From the NCBI GenBank assembly GCA_027484085.1, contig JAIXQF010000001.1, positions 4,742 to 68,741 of the forward strand: 64,000 nucleotides of DNA. The letters are read 5' to 3'. Both the position numbers and the translations under genes were made by a program. Below, one piece after another: positions 46,700 to 64,000 of this stretch (position 1 is its first letter; every line of letters begins with the position of its first letter). The notes beneath the pieces were generated by a model. The model saw only the letters and a program-made list of their open reading frames with translations, was not told where the DNA came from and made no database searches. The stretch comes from Actinomycetales bacterium. GTDB lineage: Bacteria > Actinomycetota > Actinomycetes > S36-B12 > UBA5976.

Positions 46700-46712
46700 C
46701 ACCAAGTTTGGG

Positions 46713-46785
46713 AACCCCTGGCGGGAATTGAACCCGCATCTCCAATTAAGTCAGGATTGGGCTCTTTCCATTGAGCTACAGGGGT
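46713..46785 (-). tRNA. tRNA-like gene with non-canonical anticodon arm (nominal anticodon GAC), no encoded CCA
   Basis: Minus strand ACCCCTG-TA-GCTCAATGGAAAGAGC-C-CAATC-CTGACTT-AATTG-GAGAT-GCGGGTTCAATTCCCGC-CAGGGGT-T. Acceptor, D and T arms are good. The anticodon stem has a C31/A39 mismatch and U37, or alternatively a 9-nt loop. Confidence 0.5.
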
Positions 46786-58202: not shown

Positions 58203-59132
58203 TTAGTGAATATGTCGTTCAACCGAAATGATTTTTGACAGATCTGAAGCGTCTCGGTGGTAGACGACCATTGACCCTGGTGTCAGGGCCGGATCAAATG
58301 CTTTTTTGGCGTCGGTCGCTAATTCAAATCTTTCAGCTAAAACTTCCATCACGGTCGGCAAAACTGGTCGGTGAGTGCAAAGCACGAATGCGCTTTCAAT
58401 AGCCGCAAGTTCACTGGCTCGAACCCGAGCCTTTTCAGGGAACTGAATGTGTTGCTCTTCGCTCAATGATGGTTCGAGTCCAATCGACAAACTGCGTGCC
58501 GAGGCGTATGGTCCGACCGTATCTCGACATCGCACCGAGTCCGATGAGTGCAATGTGGATATCCCGTAAGCCGAAAGTGCCGTCACCAACATACTTGCTT
58601 GGATTCTGCCAACCGATGTCAATGGACGGTAAGCATCCGGTTCGTTTAGATTCTCAACATCGTTAGCCCACTCGGTACGTTTCATCGCTTGGGTATGACG
58701 TAACACGATCATCGGAATCGTCATTGGTGATGCTTGAGCAGCCTTCAGAACCTCAACATCATGTTCATATGTAAGTTTTCTTGCAGCGTCGTCAAAAGTG
58801 AGCCAGGCGATTTCATCTACTTCATCATTTGGCAAGAACGTGCCGGAAAGCAATCGAGCAGACCAGTAATGAGAATCCTTAAGGCGCTCACCAATTTTGT
58901 AAGTTTGTGTAGGAAGGCGCACACATAGTTCAATTGCGAATCCAGTTTCTTCTCTAACTTCGCGAACAGCTGCACCAATTATGTGCTCACCTGATTCAAC
59001 TTTTCCTTTCGGAAATGTCCAATCCTCGCGGTAATCGCGGTGGACCAGCAAGAACTCTTTGCCGTTTGGGCCAGTTCTTGTAACAACTGCGCCAGACGCG
59101 ACGATTCGGTCAGTGGTTGCCAAAGAATCCAA
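58203..59132 (-). CDS. mutT1: NUDIX hydrolase fused to histidine-phosphatase (SixA-like) domain, MutT1-type
   Basis: NUDIX box [23 protein letters not shown]-terminal domain starts IVLRHTQA (RH catalytic motif). Overlaps ppk1 as in mycobacteria (Rv2984-Rv2985, from memory). Confidence 0.7.
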
Positions 59133-61269
59133 CCTTGTTCAAGATGGTGTCAATTCGTCTAGGTGTAGGTGAATCAGCTGCAGATTTGGCCACAGGATGA
59201 TGAGCAATCAAAAGCTCTTGATATTCAGCAAGTGGCTCACCTGATTCGTCCAGGTGTTTGCGCACCCACTCACCGTTGGCCTGCAAGTGCCACGAAGCTG
59301 TTTTATCTGACATACCTAAATCGACAACCTCGGCAATCGCCTTTGCATTCTCGGGATTCATTCGAACCAAAACTTCAACCCGGCGATCTAAGTTGCGGTG
59401 CATTAGATCAGCGGAGCCAATCCAAGTTTCACCTTGGCCACCATTTCCAAAGTCATAAACGCGGCTATGCTCCAAGAATCTACCAAGGACGCTTCGCACT
59501 CGAATGTTCTCCGAATAGCCAGGAACACCTGGACGAACTGAGCAAATACCTCTTACCAAGATGTCGACTTTCACTCCGGCTTGGGAGGCTCGATACAGCG
59601 CATCAATAATTGCTTCATCCACAATGGAATTACATTTGAAGCGTATGTGTGCAGGCTTTCCTTCATTTGCGAAAGCGATCTCTCGATCGATGCGGGCAAT
59701 CAGTCCAGATCGAAGTCCCTTTGGCGCAACAATTAATCGGTTGTATTCGCCCTGAACTCCGTAGCCACTTAAGTGGTTGAACAAACTAGCCACATCTTCA
59801 CCGATTTTCGGATCAGATGTCAGCAATCCATAGTCTTCATACATTCTGGCAGTTCGTGGATTGTAGTTTCCAGTACCGATGTGAACGTATCGATTTAACT
59901 TTCCGCCGTCGTTACGCACGACCATGCATAACTTGGCATGAGTCTTAAGCCCGACGATTCCATAGACCACGTGGACGCCAGATTCTTCTAGCTTTCGCGC
60001 CCAGTCGATGTTGTTTTGCTCATCGAAGCGAGCCTTGATTTCCACCACAGCTAAAACTTGCTTACCAAGTTCCGCTGCATGAATTAGGGCATCAACAATC
60101 GGAGAGTCACCAGAGGTGCGATATAGAGTCTGCTTGATTGCTAGCACGTTTGGATCGTTAGCTGCTTGCTCCAAAAACAGCTGCATACTCGTAGAAAATG
60201 AGTCATACGGGTGATGTAGTAAGACATCGCGATTGCGCATTACTTCAAGAATGTCTGGCGCTGTAGAACTTTCAACTTCGGCAAGTGCAGTGCTGGTACG
60301 TGCAATGAAAACTGGAGCCTTAAGGTCGTCTCGCTTTAGTTTCATCAACTCGAATAGAGATTGGTGATCAAGCGGTCCAGCTAACTTGAAGACTTCATTT
60401 TGCTCGACACCTAATTCGCCGACGATCAGATCCAAAACATGAGAATCGATTGTGTTTTCAACTTCAAGCCGGACCGCAGGACCAAATCGTCTGCGCATAA
60501 GTTCGCGCTCAAGTGCCTGCAATAAGTTTTCGGCATCGTCTTCTTCAACTTCAAGTTCTTCATTTCGAGTAACCCGAAACGCATGGCACTGCACAACATT
60601 CATGCCTGGGAACAGTTTGTCTAGATGACCAGCCATGACATCTTCAAGTGTCACAAAACGCTGAGGAGAAACTTGGATGTATCTAGGTAATGAAGGCGGA
60701 ACCTTTACGCGGGCAAATAATTCATGTCCAGACGACGGATTCTTTACAACCACTGCCAAATTGAGCGAGAGTCCTGAAATGTACGGGAATGGGTGTGATG
60801 GATCCACAGCAAGGGGAGTTAGTACTGGAAAAACTTGTTCATCGAACAGCGTTGACATCTCTTCGCGTTCATCGTTAGTCAGTTCTTCCCACCGCAGGAT
60901 TTCAATTCCACTGGCAACCAAAGCAGGCAGGATTAAATCATTGAAGGTCTCAGATGCGGTTTTCATCGCATCGTAGCTTCTGGCCAGAATTGAAGCATGT
61001 ACTTCAGTTGGCTGGATTCCCGAAACTGTCTTTAGTGCCATGCCAGTGGCAATTCGTCGCTTTAGCCCAGCGACTCGGACCATAAAGAATTCATCAAGGT
61101 TGCTGGCAAAAATAGAAAGATACTTAACGCGTTCTAGAAGTTCCATTTCTTGATCTTGCGCCAACTCTAAAACTCGCTGGTTAAATGCAAGCCAAGATAA
61201 CTCTCGATCGAGGAATCGGTCGTTAGGCAGAGCAATAGGCGCTGCCGCCGATGGGGAAGTTTCAGTCAT
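59110..61269 (-). CDS. ppk1: polyphosphate kinase 1
   Basis: 719 aa. N-terminus [23 protein letters not shown]-like motifs KTHAKLCMV and FLEHSRVY. Confidence 0.93.
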
Positions 61270-61361: not shown

Positions 61362-62528
61362 GTGTCGAGACAAATCGTTGTAATGGGATCAGGCGAAACC
61401 AGTCCAACTATGGTGACTCCACACCAGCAAATACTGGCATCCCTTGGAAAGCCAGACCGCCTGAAATTGACCATTTTGGATACCCCATTTGGTTTTCAAG
61501 AAAATGCCGACGACTTAACTGAAAAGTTGATCGACTTCTTCTCTCATTCAGTCGGCGCTACGCCAAAAGCTATCTCGTTGCGTAATGCATCAATTAGTGG
61601 GTCCGCTTTAGGGGAGGCAGTCAATTCGATTCGCGAATCCGATTGGCTGTTTGCTGGGCCAGGTAGCCCATCGTATGCATTAAAGGTTTGGCACGAACTT
61701 GGTGTGAGTCCGCACTTTGATGAAGTGCTAGTCAATGGAACTGTGGTGTTAGCTTCGGCTGCTGCATTGACGGCTGGATCTCACACGATTCCGGTTTATG
61801 AAATGTACAAAGTTGGCGATGAGCCACGTTGGCTTCCGGGTTTAAATCTGATTGAGCGTCACACTGGAATGCCCGCAGCAATCATTCCGCATTACGACAA
61901 TGCAGATGGCGCAAACCATGACACTCGATTCTGTTACATCGGCGAACGTCGCTTGCGCACTATGGAATCACTATTGCCACCTGAAGTTTTCATTATTGGT
62001 GTTGACGAACATACTGGCATTCGTTTTGATTTAGATGAGCGCATTGCATATGTGTTTGGCCGTGGCACCATGACGATTCGTCATCATGGTGAATCTTGGA
62101 CTGTTGCCTCTGGCGAAAGCGCAACCTTTGACGAAATCATTTCTCACACTGGTAGCACTATTGTTCTCGGCGAACCAGCACCATTATTCAAAGTAGATCC
62201 ACATAAAGTTGAAGAACTTCTTGATGCTGGAAAAGTTAGCGATGCCGTTGATGCATTACTAAATCTTGATGAACTTGATCGCGACACCGAAACTCGAGCT
62301 GCTGTTCATTCATTGGTTACTCGCCTAGGTCACATTGCAGCGAGTCCTAAAGTTGACATCATGTCAGTCGTTGGGCCATACATCGATGCGTTACTACAAG
62401 CTCGACAGGCTGCGCGCGCAGGCGGTCGCTGGGATGACGCCGATGCGATTCGAGATCAACTTATGGAAATGAAAGTAACCATCCAGGACTCTAAAGACGG
62501 ATCTTCCTGGGAAATCGAAAGTTCATGA
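61362..62528 (+). CDS. S51/cyanophycinase-like (class I glutamine amidotransferase-fold) domain fused to a CysRS C-terminal-like domain
   Basis: N-terminus IVVMGSGETSP, WLFAGPGSPSY, IIPHYDN. The last ~110 aa (DAVDALLNLDELD ... RWDDADAIRDQLMEMKVTIQDSKDGSSWEI) parallel the C-terminus of the CysS encoded at 23072-24469 ([29 protein letters not shown]). Confidence 0.5.
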   Translation: MSRQIVVMGSGETSPTMVTPHQQILASLGKPDRLKLTILDTPFGFQENADDLTEKLIDFFSHSVGATPKAISLRNASISGSALGEAVNSIRESDWLFAGPGSPSYALKVWHELGVSPHFDEVLVNGTVVLASAAALTAGSHTIPVYEMYKVGDEPRWLPGLNLIERHTGMPAAIIPHYDNADGANHDTRFCYIGERRLRTMESLLPPEVFIIGVDEHTGIRFDLDERIAYVFGRGTMTIRHHGESWTVASGESATFDEIISHTGSTIVLGEPAPLFKVDPHKVEELLDAGKVSDAVDALLNLDELDRDTETRAAVHSLVTRLGHIAASPKVDIMSVVGPYIDALLQARQAARAGGRWDDADAIRDQLMEMKVTIQDSKDGSSWEIESS

Positions 62529-63238
62529 GCCCAGGTCCAATTGCATTAGTTGGATCTGGGGAATACCTGCCAATCATGCAAGATGTTGAAGCCAACTTAA
62601 TTGCTGGTCGAAATCCTAAGTATGTTCAAATTCCAACTGCGGCCGCGCCCGAAGGCGAGTCATCTCTGCATCACTGGATTACCTTAGGAAAAGCGCAAGC
62701 CGAGAGAATTGGTGCGGAACCAGTTGCTGTGATTGCGCACGATCGTAATGATGCAGATGATCCTCGGATTGCGGAACTTGTTCGAGATGCAGGCTTGATT
62801 TATCTTTCCGGTGGTAATCCCACATTTCTGGCTAACACCTTGCGGGAAACATTGTTATGGAAAGAGATTGAAAGTGCTTGGCGAGATGGCGCAGCACTAG
62901 CTGGCTGCAGTGCGGGTGCGATGGCGCTTGCAGACCATATCCCGGCTTTACGCCTTCCGACCCATTCGGCAACCAGCGGTCTTGGACTTTTGCCACATAT
63001 TCGAGTCCTGCCACACTTCGACAAGATGTTTGCTCGGTTACCAGACTTCATGACCAGATTTATGAAAGTTCCAGATGGCGTAAGCGTGGTGGGAATTGAT
63101 GAAGATACTGCCATTGTTGGCGGTCCGTTTGAATGGGAAGTTCAGGGCCGACAATCTGCTTGGTTGTTTGTTGACGGGCACCGCAAAGAATTTAAAGCAG
63201 GACAGACGTTAGTTACACCGAAGATTTTCGGAACATAA
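62525..63238 (+). CDS. S51-family (peptidase E/cyanophycinase-like) protein
   Basis: IALVGSGEY, LIYLSGGNPTFL, AGCSAGAMAL (GxSAG-type nucleophile elbow), VLPHFD. ATGA overlap with the upstream paralogue. Confidence 0.6.
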   Translation: MSPGPIALVGSGEYLPIMQDVEANLIAGRNPKYVQIPTAAAPEGESSLHHWITLGKAQAERIGAEPVAVIAHDRNDADDPRIAELVRDAGLIYLSGGNPTFLANTLRETLLWKEIESAWRDGAALAGCSAGAMALADHIPALRLPTHSATSGLGLLPHIRVLPHFDKMFARLPDFMTRFMKVPDGVSVVGIDEDTAIVGGPFEWEVQGRQSAWLFVDGHRKEFKAGQTLVTPKIFGT

Positions 63239-64000
63239 CGTCGGTATCCCAGTGTGCAAAGCCAAGTGATTCGTACAAACGAATTGCAGCCTTGTTATCT
63301 GCATCAACATAAAGCATCGCTGCGGGCAGACCCTGGCTACGTAAATGCTCAAGACCTCGCACACTTAAAAGCTTCCCTAATCCAGAACCTCTTAAGGCTG
63401 GCGAAATGCCAAGTACGTAAATTTCCCCGATTTCTGAATGTCCGTGTCCACCAGCGCCACCGTGAACTTTTGTCCAGTGGTATCCAACCATTACTTCTGA
63501 GCCAGATTGCTCTTGAGTTGCAATCAAGAATCCAGCCGGATCAAACCATTGCTCTGACATTCGGACCGCTAAATCCTGCTCAGACATCCGACCTTGTTCT
63601 GGATGATCCGCAAATACTGTTGCGTTTAGTTCTAGCCAAGCCTGCTCATCGACCCCAACGCGAAATGGTCGAACCGTTACGTTAGAAATGTCGTTGGCTT
63701 TGGGCAGTGGCGCAAACAAGGATCTGCGCATTTGCCAAAGTTCGCGGGTTTTAGCGAAACCTAGTTTTTCAGCCAAACTGTAGGCACTCATGAGTTCGCC
63801 GTGTGCCCACAACCTCATTTTCGGATCGTTAGATTTTGCTACCGCCGCTTCTACTAACGCTCTGCCAATGCCTTGTCGCCTGAATTCAGGATGCACGACA
63901 ACTTCAACAACTGATCCAGCCACAGCATCGGTTTGATCTAGGTGTAGATAGCCAACAATTTTTCCAGAATCATTGGTTGCAACTAAATGTTCGTCAGCAA
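63213..64000 (-). CDS. mshD: mycothiol synthase (acetyl-CoA:Cys-GlcN-Ins acetyltransferase), N-terminus outside window
   Basis: Two GNAT modules (VHPEFRRQGIGRALV and GISPALRGSGLGKLL). The frame stays open to position 64000, so the M at 63923 is internal. Confidence 0.8.
   Translation of the reverse strand, partial: ADEHLVATNDSGKIVGYLHLDQTDAVAGSVVEVVVHPEFRRQGIGRALVEAAVAKSNDPKMRLWAHGELMSAYSLAEKLGFAKTRELWQMRRSLFAPLPKANDISNVTVRPFRVGVDEQAWLELNATVFADHPEQGRMSEQDLAVRMSEQWFDPAGFLIATQEQSGSEVMVGYHWTKVHGGAGGHGHSEIGEIYVLGISPALRGSGLGKLLSVRGLEHLRSQGLPAAMLYVDADNKAAIRLYESLGFAHWDTDVMFRKSSV

What the first reader, a model, noticed from the sequence alone, without database searches (positions are those of the whole stretch)
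61362..63238. S51/cyanophycinase-like protein fused to a CysRS C-terminal-like domain, coupled to a second S51 paralogue and convergent with mshD
The 388-aa protein begins like a peptidase-E/cyanophycinase-fold protein (GSGETSP, AGPGSPSY, PHYDN). Its last ~110 aa align by eye with the C-terminal anticodon-binding region of the CysS encoded in this same window (DAxDALL...; RWDDADAIRDQL..V.IQDSKDGSSWEI versus [26 protein letters not shown]). The next gene (ATGA-coupled) is a shorter S51 paralogue with an intact-looking CSAGA nucleophile elbow. In the fused protein the equivalent segment reads ASAAAL. A hydrolase or amidotransferase fold tethered to a tRNA(Cys)-recognition-type domain is not a combination I recognise. 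The locus sits beside the last enzyme of mycothiol (Cys-GlcN-Ins) synthesis. It might act on Cys-tRNA, on cysteinyl adducts, or in mycothiol-related chemistry.
Basis: partly seen in the sequence, partly recalled or inferred. Interest (0 to 1): 0.6.

Follow-up and report, generated by a model that had tools for sequence, protein, structure and literature searches.

The report
Hydrolase fused to tRNA-Cys reader
A widespread, unstudied bacterial protein joins a peptidase-type enzyme to the part of cysteinyl-tRNA synthetase that reads the cysteine tRNA's anticodon, so it probably acts on that tRNA. Its small neighbour is a gene that lake ecologists call the 'acI cyanophycinase', and the nearby mycothiol gene looks like a chance neighbour.

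Summary
Gene A (61362-62528, 388 aa) has a peptidase-S51-fold domain, a variable tether and a genuine CysRS C-terminal anticodon-binding module (Pfam CysS_C, E 3e-9). It overlaps gene B (62525-63238), an S51 paralogue, by ATGA. B overlaps the convergent mshD by 26 nt.

Two parts of the interpretation fail.
- A is not a degenerate paralogue. The Ser in 'ASAAAL' (S132) aligns with the cyanophycinase nucleophile Ser132, and S132, H177 and E216 are conserved in 64, 64 and 63 of 64 diverse homologues.
- The mycothiol link is not conserved. Relatives have other genes between B and mshD, or no mshD nearby.

The five E. coli CysRS positions at the tRNA-Cys anticodon are conserved in A: R348, D361 and R364 in 64/64, R352 in 63/64, and an aromatic at 357 in 63/64.

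The family occurs in at least 595 species genomes, mainly Actinomycetota and Chloroflexota. In 54 of 80 loci an alpha/beta hydrolase gene sits directly upstream. The A-B pairing is specific to Nanopelagicales-like loci.

Best reading (about 0.45): a tRNA-Cys-directed serine hydrolase or acyl-transferase that works with a second hydrolase. No paper in the library describes it. B fails the curated cyanophycinase threshold.

The parts
61362..62528 (+). Gene A: 388-aa S51-fold hydrolase fused to the CysRS anticodon-binding module. GTG start preferred over ATG 61383.
   Evidence: ORF. Domain hits. AF2 pLDDT 92.1. Homologues from other phyla align from residues 1-5, and strand beta1 (aa 4-8) is modelled confidently.
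61362..62150 (+). A, aa 1-263: peptidase-S51 / class-I-GATase-like alpha/beta domain.
   Evidence: Foldseek: 6NQC E 2e-14 (TMt 0.78); PepE and cyanophycinase about 1e-11. hhalign against the B family: probability 98.8%.
61755..61757 (+). A Ser132 (TCG), predicted nucleophile within 'LASAAAL'.
   Evidence: Conserved 64/64. Aligns with B Ser129, with the 6NQC 'CSAGA' Ser, and with the cyanophycinase Ser132 position that is altered in 7UQW S132Dap. Codon checked.
61890..61892 (+). A His177 (PHYDN), predicted general base.
   Evidence: Conserved 64/64. Aligns with PHFD of B and QHF of cyanophycinase.
62007..62009 (+). A Glu216 (VDEHT), predicted third triad member.
   Evidence: Conserved 63/64. 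Aligns with GIDEDT of B and of cyanophycinase.
62151..62198 (+). A aa 264-279: low-confidence linker, the start of a variable tether.
   Evidence: pLDDT falls to 58-79. The distance from the S51 domain to the first CysS_C arginine ranges from 69 to 154 aa across 64 homologues.
62199..62420 (+). A aa 280-353: helical region, weakly similar to the CysRS helical bundle that precedes the alpha/beta anticodon domain.
   Evidence: Profile alignments to CysRS structures 8QHP, 6UJD and 1LI5 span about 105-115 positions. 1U0B is the top Foldseek hit over 108 columns, but with poor superposition. No match to the window's own CysS in this region.
62382..62510 (+). A aa 341-383: CysS_C anticodon-binding domain with R348, R352, W357, D361 and R364, equivalent to E. 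coli R423, R427, W432, D436 and R439.
   Evidence: Pfam E 3e-9. PDB CysRS hits. Contact residues taken from PMC12684709 and PMC13449415. Conservation 64/64, 63/64, 63/64 aromatic, 64/64 and 64/64.
62525..62528 (+). ATGA stop/start overlap between A and B.
   Evidence: Sequence. The same 1-4-nt overlap is present in five loci holding B homologues of 63-64% identity to B.
62525..63238 (+). Gene B: 237-aa stand-alone S51 paralogue (Ser129, His164, Glu193). This is one of the two genes that sources label cyanophycinase in acI genomes.
   Evidence: Pfam S51 E 7e-21. PDB 6NQC, 'peptidase from an acI-B1 Actinobacterium', E 4e-56. TIGR02069 cyanophycinase 65.8 bits against a cut-off of 126.6. Triad invariant in 26 homologues.
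63213..63998 (-). mshD (partial, runs off the window). Context only, not part of the system.
   Evidence: TIGR03448 E 9e-89. The adjacency is not conserved.
59110..61269 (-). ppk1 (followed by the mutT1-like gene at 58203-59132), divergent from A. Context only.
   Evidence: ORFs. The same ppk1 / NUDIX-His_Phos genes flank A in L001, L086 and L088.

Best explanation
Gene A encodes a catalytically competent S51-type serine hydrolase or acyl-transferase with the triad Ser132-His177-Glu216. A variable tether of 69-154 aa joins it to a copy of the CysRS anticodon-binding module.

Proposed mechanism:
- The module docks A onto the GCA anticodon stem-loop of tRNA-Cys, as it does in CysRS.
- The S51 domain then attacks an acyl group carried by that tRNA, most plausibly the aminoacyl ester at the 3' end.
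- This forms an acyl-Ser132 intermediate. Water resolves it (deacylation, meaning quality control of a wrong or damaged residue on tRNA-Cys), or an acceptor amine or thiol resolves it (aminoacyl transfer).
- A second serine hydrolase works with A. In Nanopelagicales-like lineages it is B, A's closest stand-alone paralogue, which is translationally coupled and may form an S51-type heterodimer with A. In most other lineages it is an alpha/beta hydrolase encoded directly upstream.

Shown here: domain homologies, triad conservation, conservation of the anticodon-contact residues, operon structures and taxonomic spread.
Inferred, not shown: tRNA-Cys binding, the chemical nature of the substrate, and any A-B complex.

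The juxtaposition with mshD is incidental.
For: Architecture:
- CysS_C scores above Pfam's gathering score.
- The family profile hits solved CysRS C-termini at E 1.6e-12 to 3.9e-11, and 6NQC at 1.3e-11.
- The AF2 model has pLDDT 92 and an S51 fold.

Active site: S132 and H177 are conserved 64/64 and E216 63/64. About 20 further residues are invariant (S10, E12, F45, Q46, N48, GPG99-101, Y149, D187, T188 and others), which implies one specific conserved substrate.

Nucleophile equivalence: cyanophycinase S132 aligns with B S129, which aligns with A S132.

Anticodon reading: the E. coli contacts R423, R427, W432, D436 and R439 (PMC12684709 and PMC13449415) map to R348 (64/64), R352 (63/64), an aromatic at 357 (63/64), D361 (64/64) and R364 (64/64). 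This holds although the rest of the module has diverged to about 30% identity.

Selection and spread:
- 1431 clusters at 50% identity, 407 of them at E <= 1e-30.
- At least 595 species genomes, mainly Actinomycetota and Chloroflexota.
- The gene is retained in acI, a lineage described in the literature as genome-streamlined (PMC12817590).

Partner hydrolase:
- An alpha/beta hydrolase lies directly upstream on the same strand in 54/80 loci. Its stop is within -7 to +30 nt of A's start in 48/54 loci (median 2 nt).
- A-B overlap is present in five loci holding B homologues of 63-64% identity, whose flanking genes differ from this window's.

Precedent for the principle: free-standing ThrRS-ed is a hydrolytic domain plus the cognate anticodon-binding domain, and ProRS INS depends on its anticodon-binding domain (review PMC11295145).
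Against: - There is no biochemical evidence of any kind.
- CysRS is not known to need editing, so no obvious mischarged substrate exists.
- The elbow is A-S-A-A-A rather than G-x-S-A-G. The Gly-to-Ala change could alter the oxyanion hole.
- The helical part of the module superposes poorly on CysRS (TM 0.37) and shows no similarity to the window's own CysS. The SC-fold that bridges the anticodon and acceptor ends in CysRS is absent. The geometry for reaching the 3' end is therefore untested, because I could not obtain model coordinates.
- Stand-alone A-type domains without CysS_C exist (P0150), and 4 of 64 members miss the Pfam hit.
- Planktophila-type loci carry A without B or the alpha/beta hydrolase nearby, so the partner may be dispensable.
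- No tRNA-Cys gene, T-box or other RNA element lies nearby.
Confidence: 0.45

Rival explanations
1. A and B are ordinary cytoplasmic exopeptidases of the PepE or cyanophycinase type, acting on Asp-X or beta-Asp-Arg. A's CysRS-derived tail is a regulatory or oligomerisation appendage. For example, it could sense uncharged tRNA-Cys to tune peptide catabolism to cysteine supply in an organism described as dependent on external reduced sulfur, without the tRNA being the substrate.
For: - S51 fold and triad.
- B homologues are followed by an amino-acid permease in five loci.
- Nanopelagicales are reported to depend on exogenous reduced sulfur (PMC12817590).
- Stand-alone A-type domains exist.
Against: - B scores 65.8 bits on the curated cyanophycinase model against a cut-off of 126.6; A scores 12 bits.
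- A matches PepE and cyanophycinase by fold only, at 14-18% identity.
- Strict conservation of the base-contacting residues is more than a generic appendage needs.
- The downstream permease is not conserved: L086 and L088 have a different gene of no known family there, which in L086 begins with a signal-peptide-like segment, and this window has nothing.
Confidence: 0.22
2. One reading: the pair acts in mycothiol or cysteinyl-adduct chemistry together with MshD. It could be a Cys-tRNA-dependent cysteinyl transferase, or an amidase acting on Cys-GlcN-Ins-type compounds.
For: - Physical adjacency and 26-nt overlap with mshD in this window.
- The same ppk1 ... A-B ... mshD frame occurs in L001, L086 and L088.
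Against: - Only 1 of the 80 genome loci has an mshD match within 6 kb.
- L086 and L088 have another gene between B and mshD. L081-L085 have a permease, PAP2 and a nucleotidyl-transferase instead.
- The family is abundant in Chloroflexota, where mycothiol is not known (own knowledge).
- I could not test for mshC in this genome, because the genome tools were shut.
Confidence: 0.07
3. A is a catalytically dead targeting subunit that delivers the active paralogue B (or the alpha/beta hydrolase) to tRNA-Cys.
For: - The nucleophile elbow is unusual (ASAAA instead of GxSAG).
- A hydrolase partner gene is present in most loci.
Against: - Ser132 and His177 are invariant and Glu216 is kept in 63/64. About 20 further S51-domain residues are invariant across two phyla. 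Such conservation is not expected of a pseudoenzyme.
- A occurs without any partner gene nearby in L002 and L087.
Confidence: 0.08
4. The CysS_C-like module binds something other than tRNA-Cys, such as another RNA with a GCA-type loop or a protein such as CysRS itself. The enzyme's substrate would then be unrelated to tRNA.
For: - The helical part differs from CysRS.
- No direct evidence of tRNA binding exists.
Against: All five anticodon-proximal residues are conserved. In CysRS these residues contact G34 and its neighbours.
Confidence: 0.1

Closest known systems
Cysteinyl-tRNA synthetase C-terminal anticodon-binding module (E. coli CysRS, PDB 1LI5 / 1U0B; Pfam CysS_C PF23493)
   Same: The alpha/beta terminal domain is homologous (E 3e-9 by Pfam; 1e-12 to 4e-11 profile against PDB). 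The anticodon-contact positions R423, R427, W432, D436 and R439 are conserved. The preceding helices are weakly alignable.
   Different: A has no Rossmann catalytic domain, no HIGH or KMSKS motif and no SC-fold. The module follows a peptidase-fold domain instead.
Peptidase family S51: PepE aspartyl dipeptidase (1FY2, 6A4R), cyanophycinase CphB (3EN0, 7UQW), and the acI-B1 'peptidase' 6NQC
   Same: Same fold (TMt 0.70-0.78) and an aligned Ser-His-Glu triad. B is a close homologue of 6NQC (E 4e-56).
   Different: A is only 14-18% identical to these structures and falls below the Pfam S51 threshold. Its elbow is ASAAA. It has an extra conserved insert, N-x-E-G-x-x-H-D-T-R, after the catalytic His, and a tRNA-binding module. 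Neither A nor B reaches the curated cyanophycinase or PepE thresholds.
Free-standing trans-editing factors, especially crenarchaeal ThrRS-ed (editing domain plus anticodon-binding domain), and YbaK, ProXp and AlaX (review PMC11295145)
   Same: Same working principle if the hypothesis is right: a hydrolytic domain given tRNA specificity by the cognate synthetase's anticodon-binding domain, with no aminoacylation domain.
   Different: The hydrolase fold is unrelated to the INS/YbaK, AlaX/ThrRS-N2 and DTD folds; Foldseek finds only S51 enzymes. None of the editing factors covered in the passages I read of that review is dedicated to tRNA-Cys. Activity is untested.
MshC (Cys:GlcN-Ins ligase), the CysRS paralogue of mycothiol synthesis
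   Same: Both are CysRS-derived parts re-used in Actinomycetota. The window's gene lies next to mshD.
   Different: By my own recollection, MshC keeps the catalytic domain and lacks the anticodon domain. A is the reverse. Linkage to msh genes is not conserved.

Membership tests
Peptidase S51 (gene A) | S51 / class-I-GATase-like alpha/beta fold | tested here: met
   AF2 pLDDT 92.1. Foldseek: 6NQC E 2e-14 TMt 0.78, PepE 4e-12, cyanophycinase 3e-11.
Peptidase S51 (gene A) | Ser-His-Glu catalytic triad at the family's positions | tested here: met
   S132 64/64, H177 64/64, E216 63/64. Aligned with the B, 6NQC and cyanophycinase triad.
Peptidase S51 (gene A) | Pfam PF03575 gathering score | tested here: not met
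   18.6 bits against 23.9. Only 22 of 64 family members hit the model at E < 0.01.
Peptidase S51 (gene A) | Hydrolysis of N-terminal Asp dipeptides or beta-Asp-Arg | not testable with these tools
   Needs an enzyme assay.
Peptidase S51 (gene B) | Pfam gathering score and triad | tested here: met
   75.3 bits against 23.9. S129, H164 and E193 invariant in 26 homologues.
Cyanophycinase (CphB/CphE), genes B and A | NCBIfam TIGR02069 equivalog cut-off | tested here: not met
   B 65.8 bits and A 12 bits, against 126.6.
Cyanophycinase (CphB/CphE), gene B | Arg/Gln/Asp pocket around the catalytic His that binds beta-Asp-Arg (residue list recalled from memory of the 3EN0 paper) | tested here: inconclusive
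   In the alignment, cyanophycinase 'DQHFHNRNRMAR' corresponds to B 'LPHFDKMFARLP', so most polar positions differ. The residue list itself was not verified here.
Cysteinyl-tRNA synthetase | Class-I catalytic domain with HIGH and KMSKS | tested here: not met
   No such motifs in A. Only the last 52 aa of the window's CysS match A. TIGR00435 matches positions 419-464 of 466 only.
Cysteinyl-tRNA synthetase | C-terminal alpha/beta anticodon-binding domain (CysS_C) | tested here: met
   PF23493 E 3e-9, above the gathering score. Present in 60 of 64 family members.
Cysteinyl-tRNA synthetase | Residues contacting the GCA anticodon (E. coli R423, R427, W432, D436, R439) | tested here: met
   R348 64/64, R352 63/64, aromatic at 357 63/64, D361 64/64, R364 64/64.
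Cysteinyl-tRNA synthetase | Helical bundle preceding CysS_C | tested here: inconclusive
   Profile alignments extend to E. coli residue 336. 1U0B is the top Foldseek hit over 108 columns, but with E 0.04 and TM 0.37. No signal against the window's own CysS.
Free-standing aminoacyl-tRNA trans-editing factors | Hydrolytic domain homologous to a known editing fold (INS/YbaK, AlaX/ThrRS-N2, DTD) | tested here: not met
   All significant Foldseek hits (the 20 with E <= 0.001) are S51 enzymes.
Free-standing aminoacyl-tRNA trans-editing factors | Deacylation of a specific (mis)acylated tRNA | not testable with these tools
   Needs a biochemical assay.
Mycothiol biosynthesis / msh gene set | Conserved linkage or co-occurrence with msh genes | tested here: not met
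   mshD within 6 kb in 1 of 80 genome loci. Other genes intervene or replace it in relatives. Whole-genome co-occurrence could not be tested because the genome tools were shut.

The most novel reading that the evidence does not exclude
A would be the founding member of a new class of tRNA-directed enzymes. In this reading a peptidase-S51 serine hydrolase or acyl-transferase is delivered to tRNA-Cys by a captured CysRS anticodon reader. It clears or transfers the residue on (mis-, damaged- or seleno-)cysteinyl-tRNA-Cys, and a second serine hydrolase (B or an alpha/beta hydrolase) assists. It would be the first known quality-control or transfer factor dedicated to tRNA-Cys. It would also mean that genes annotated as 'cyanophycinase' in acI lake bacteria have nothing to do with cyanophycin.
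Probability: 0.35. Interest if true: 0.85.

Novelty: new variant of a known kind. Interest (0 to 1): 0.63.

Why it matters
1. tRNA-Cys is a tRNA for which I know of no dedicated editing or transfer factor. An S51-fold enzyme carrying an intact tRNA-Cys anticodon reader, conserved in two phyla and kept in genome-streamlined lake bacteria, points to an unrecognised step in cysteine decoding or Cys-tRNA use. That step can be tested directly in vitro.

2. Genes of this pair are what freshwater ecology papers call the 'acI cyanophycinase', and a niche hypothesis (feeding on cyanobacterial cyanophycin) was built on that label (PMC3526179, PMC5574706, PMC12817590). Three observations argue against the label:
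   - B fails the curated cyanophycinase threshold.
   - B has no N-terminal hydrophobic signal-like segment.
   - B is translationally coupled to a tRNA-binding paralogue.

3. Two unrelated serine hydrolases, an alpha/beta hydrolase and S51 paralogue B, alternate as A's operon partner. This is a clean case of partner replacement that could reveal the pathway.

Tried and rejected
- Whole-genome questions (mshC, ybaK, tRNA-Cys copies, a distant alpha/beta hydrolase partner) could not be asked. The genome search and the fetch from genomes were shut.
- I tested an earlier-scan lead that CysRS-S51 full-length fusions exist. I searched with a chimeric CysS+A(1-271) query restricted to the S51 region. 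The best 120 hits were all ordinary 404-459-aa family members, so the search was uninformative.
- Literature searches for the fusion, for 6NQC and for 'cyanophycinase-like' found nothing relevant.
- Expression: one metatranscriptome held a single 231-nt contig over 61362-61592. That is too weak to show co-transcription.
- No promoter or terminator consensus above the shuffled background, and no Rfam element (T-box or riboswitch), lies in 58-64 kb. The window has no tRNA-Cys gene.
- Defence-system models (PADLOC) gave no hit for A or B.
- A zinc or thiolate site like that of CysRS: the candidate ligands H186 (58/64), C191 (60/64), H217 (60/64) and H21 (61/64) are not strictly conserved, so this was not pursued.
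- A conserved third gene downstream of B was rejected. The 777-aa permease of L081 and the 752-aa protein of L086 are unrelated to each other, and both are absent from the window.
- B as a recent duplicate of A was rejected. A and B share 19% identity, whereas A homologues from other phyla share about 40% with the window's A.
Full report
**What is there.**
The window comes from a low-GC (about 47%) freshwater acI / Nanopelagicales actinobacterium. The nearest genome locus is a Nanopelagicales MAG at 96% identity. The local layout is:
- Gene A, 61362-62528 (+), 388 aa.
- Gene B, 62525-63238 (+), 237 aa, overlapping A by ATGA.
- mshD on the minus strand, overlapping B's 3' end by 26 nt (TIGR03448, E 9e-89).
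- ppk1 and a NUDIX/His-phosphatase gene, divergent upstream of A.

**The CysRS resemblance is real.**
- Pfam CysS_C (PF23493, 'cysteinyl-tRNA ligase anticodon binding domain') matches A residues 341-383 at E 3e-9, above its gathering score.
- BLASTP against the window's own CysS gives 30% identity over 54 aa, E 5e-7.
- A six-frame search of the whole window with that CysS finds only itself and this segment at significance (E 4.5e-5).
- A profile of 64 diverse homologues hits solved CysRS structures at E 1.6e-12 to 3.9e-11. The alignments reach back about 110 positions, to E. coli residues 336-460.
- Against the window's own CysS only 53 aa align.
- A separate AF2 model of residues 262-388 (pLDDT 88.9) has E. 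coli CysRS in complex with tRNA-Cys (1U0B) as its top Foldseek hit over 108 columns. The superposition is poor (E 0.04, TM 0.37).

So the terminal alpha/beta domain is certain. The preceding helices are only probably CysRS-derived.

**The N-terminal domain is an S51 enzyme and looks active.**
By sequence the window protein is below Pfam's S51 threshold (18.6 against 23.9 bits). The AF2 model (pLDDT 92.1, pTM 0.75) nevertheless matches only S51 structures at significant level:
- 6NQC ('peptidase from an acI-B1 Actinobacterium'), E 2e-14, TMt 0.78.
- PepE, Xenopus dipeptidase E and cyanophycinases, at about 1e-11.

Profile-profile comparison of the A family with the B family gives probability 98.8%, E 8.6e-17.

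In all alignments its Ser132 falls on B's Ser129 and on the Ser of 6NQC. Through B it falls on the position that differs between cyanophycinase 3EN0 and the S132Dap variant 7UQW.

Across 64 homologues sharing 31-51% identity with the window protein, S132 and H177 are invariant and E216 is 63/64. About twenty more S51-domain residues are invariant: S10, E12, F45, Q46, N48, G99-P100-G101, Y149, D187, T188 and others. That is the signature of an enzyme with one specific conserved substrate, not of a pseudoenzyme.

**The anticodon reader is intact.**
Two papers that analyse PDB 1U0B name R427, W432 and D436 as the G34 contacts. They name R423 in the hydration network, and R427, W432, D436 and R439 as the anticodon-pocket residues chosen for mutagenesis (PMC12684709, PMC13449415).

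With the offset fixed by the HMMER alignments (A = E. coli minus 75), these positions are:

| E. coli CysRS | A | Conservation in 64 homologues |
|---|---|---|
| R423 | R348 | 64/64 |
| R427 | R352 | 63 R, 1 K |
| W432 | W357 | aromatic in 63/64 |
| D436 | D361 | 64/64 |
| R439 | R364 | 64/64 |

The rest of the module is only about 30% identical to CysRS. I read this as retained recognition of the GCA anticodon. That is an inference, not a measurement.

**Family and context.**
- The family is large: 1431 clusters at 50% identity, 407 of them at E <= 1e-30.
- It is present in at least 595 species-representative genomes. These include Nanopelagicales, Acidimicrobiia, Micromonosporaceae (including cultured Dactylosporangium), Pseudonocardiaceae, Mycobacteriales MAGs and many Chloroflexota. 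There are single Rokubacteria and Saccharimonadales MAGs.
- 60 of 64 members carry CysS_C.
- The tether between the two conserved parts ranges from 69 to 154 aa.
- No NCBIfam family covers the protein, and no paper in the library mentions it.

**Operon partners.**
- In 54 of 80 genome loci a gene for an alpha/beta hydrolase (Abhydrolase_1, E 2e-28; no specific family reached) lies immediately upstream on the same strand. Its stop is within -7 to +30 nt of A's start in 48 of 54 loci, median 2 nt.
- None of those loci has B.
- B follows A only in Nanopelagicales-like loci (L001, L004, L005, L024, L025). Within that clade the pairing is stable. Three B homologues of 63-64% identity, in five loci, all have a 386-388-aa CysS_C protein directly upstream with a 1-4-nt overlap, although the flanking genes differ from this window's.
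- Planktophila-type loci have A alone (L002, L087).

So A is the constant element. A second serine hydrolase is a frequent but replaceable partner.

**The mshD adjacency is incidental.**
- Only L001 (same species level) repeats the direct abutment.
- At 78% and 63% identity (L086, L088) the same ppk1 ... mshD frame holds A-B plus a 752-767-aa gene of no known family between B and mshD. In L086 it begins with a signal-peptide-like segment.
- In L081-L085 an amino-acid permease, a PAP2 gene and a nucleotidyl-transferase follow B, and no GNAT/mshD-type gene is listed.
- Elsewhere there is no mshD match within 6 kb.
- The slot downstream of B is variable. In this window it is empty, which brings mshD next to B.
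- The family's abundance in Chloroflexota also argues against a mycothiol-specific role. That mycothiol is an actinobacterial thiol is my own knowledge.

**Mechanism proposed.**
By analogy with CysRS itself, the C-terminal module would anchor tRNA-Cys by its anticodon stem-loop. The same principle applies to free-standing ThrRS-ed, which is an editing domain plus an anticodon-binding domain, and to the dependence of ProRS INS editing on its anticodon-binding domain (review PMC11295145).

The tethered S51 domain would then attack an acyl group on the tRNA. S51 enzymes recognise an N-terminal residue with a free amine and cleave at its carboxyl through an acyl-serine (own knowledge of PepE and cyanophycinase). 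The chemically closest tRNA-borne target is therefore the aminoacyl ester. I cannot say whether the outcome is hydrolysis (quality control of a wrong or damaged residue on tRNA-Cys) or transfer to an acceptor. I put about 0.6 on tRNA-Cys binding and about 0.45 on the whole statement.

The main rival (0.22) is a genuine peptidase whose tail is regulatory. Minor rivals are a dead targeting subunit, a different ligand for the tail, and the mycothiol reading.

**A practical correction.**
B is a close homologue of 6NQC (E 4e-56). JGI labels both A and B 'cyanophycinase', 'cyanophycinase-like exopeptidase' or 'peptidase E'. The acI literature has used that label to propose cyanophycin feeding (PMC3526179, PMC5574706, PMC12817590). 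Against the label:
- B scores 65.8 bits on the curated cyanophycinase model, against a cut-off of 126.6.
- B has no N-terminal hydrophobic signal-like segment (sequence).
- B is translationally coupled to the tRNA-binding paralogue.

The cyanophycinase label should be treated as unproven.

**Limits.**
- There is no biochemical evidence.
- The genome-wide tools were shut, so co-occurrence with mshC, ybaK and similar genes is untested.
- Transcript evidence is one short metatranscriptome contig.
- Earlier notes in this scan describe the same family in other genomes. I used them as leads only. I re-derived the triad, the distribution and the residue conservation independently. I could not reproduce their report of CysRS-S51 full-length fusions.

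Noticed in passing
window 63213-63238; L086 5987-8245; L088 5954-8257; L081 5813-8146: The slot between B and the next conserved gene is variable in Nanopelagicales. It holds a 752-767-aa gene of no known family in L086 and L088 (signal-peptide-like start seen in L086), and a 765-780-aa AA_permease_2 protein plus PAP2 and NTP_transf_3 in L081-L085. It is empty in this window, so B overlaps mshD by 26 nt. This looks like a small indel hot spot.
   Followed up: partly
L006-L080 (54 loci), directly upstream of the A homologue: An uncharacterised alpha/beta hydrolase (motifs HGLASNARxWD ... GQSWGG; Abhydrolase_1) is tightly coupled to the A family across Actinomycetota and Chloroflexota. It reaches no curated family threshold. 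No homologue lies in this window.
   Followed up: partly
L089/L090 916-1674 (P0150): A 252-aa stand-alone A-type S51 domain (48% identical to A residues 1-259) has no CysS_C module and is followed by a convergent response regulator. It is a rare truncated or split form of the family.
   Followed up: partly
window 61362 vs 61383: Many database homologues are annotated as 381 aa starting at the ATG (61383). The GTG at 61362 is more likely: residues 4-8 form the first beta strand (pLDDT 94), homologues from other phyla align from residues 1-5, and a GGGA(T)GA Shine-Dalgarno-like run lies about 10 nt upstream.
   Followed up: partly
window 58203-61269: ppk1 and the NUDIX/His-phosphatase (MutT1-like) gene overlap by 23 nt. 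The pair is conserved next to A in L001, L086 and L088, and a pstS-like gene follows in L088. This may be the pst-ppk-mshD neighbourhood I recall from other actinomycetes, with A-B sitting inside it.
   Followed up: no
L013-L080, several loci, 2-4 kb upstream of A: DegV (16 loci), DUF2017 (13), a 500-aa Gfo/Idh/MocA oxidoreductase (13), CtaA/CtaB and a Zn/Mn-type ABC transporter recur near the alpha/beta-hydrolase-A pair in Acidimicrobiia and other groups. This is probably regional synteny rather than a functional link.
   Followed up: no
window 46711-46785: ARAGORN calls a tRNA-Val (GAC) on the minus strand here.
   Followed up: no
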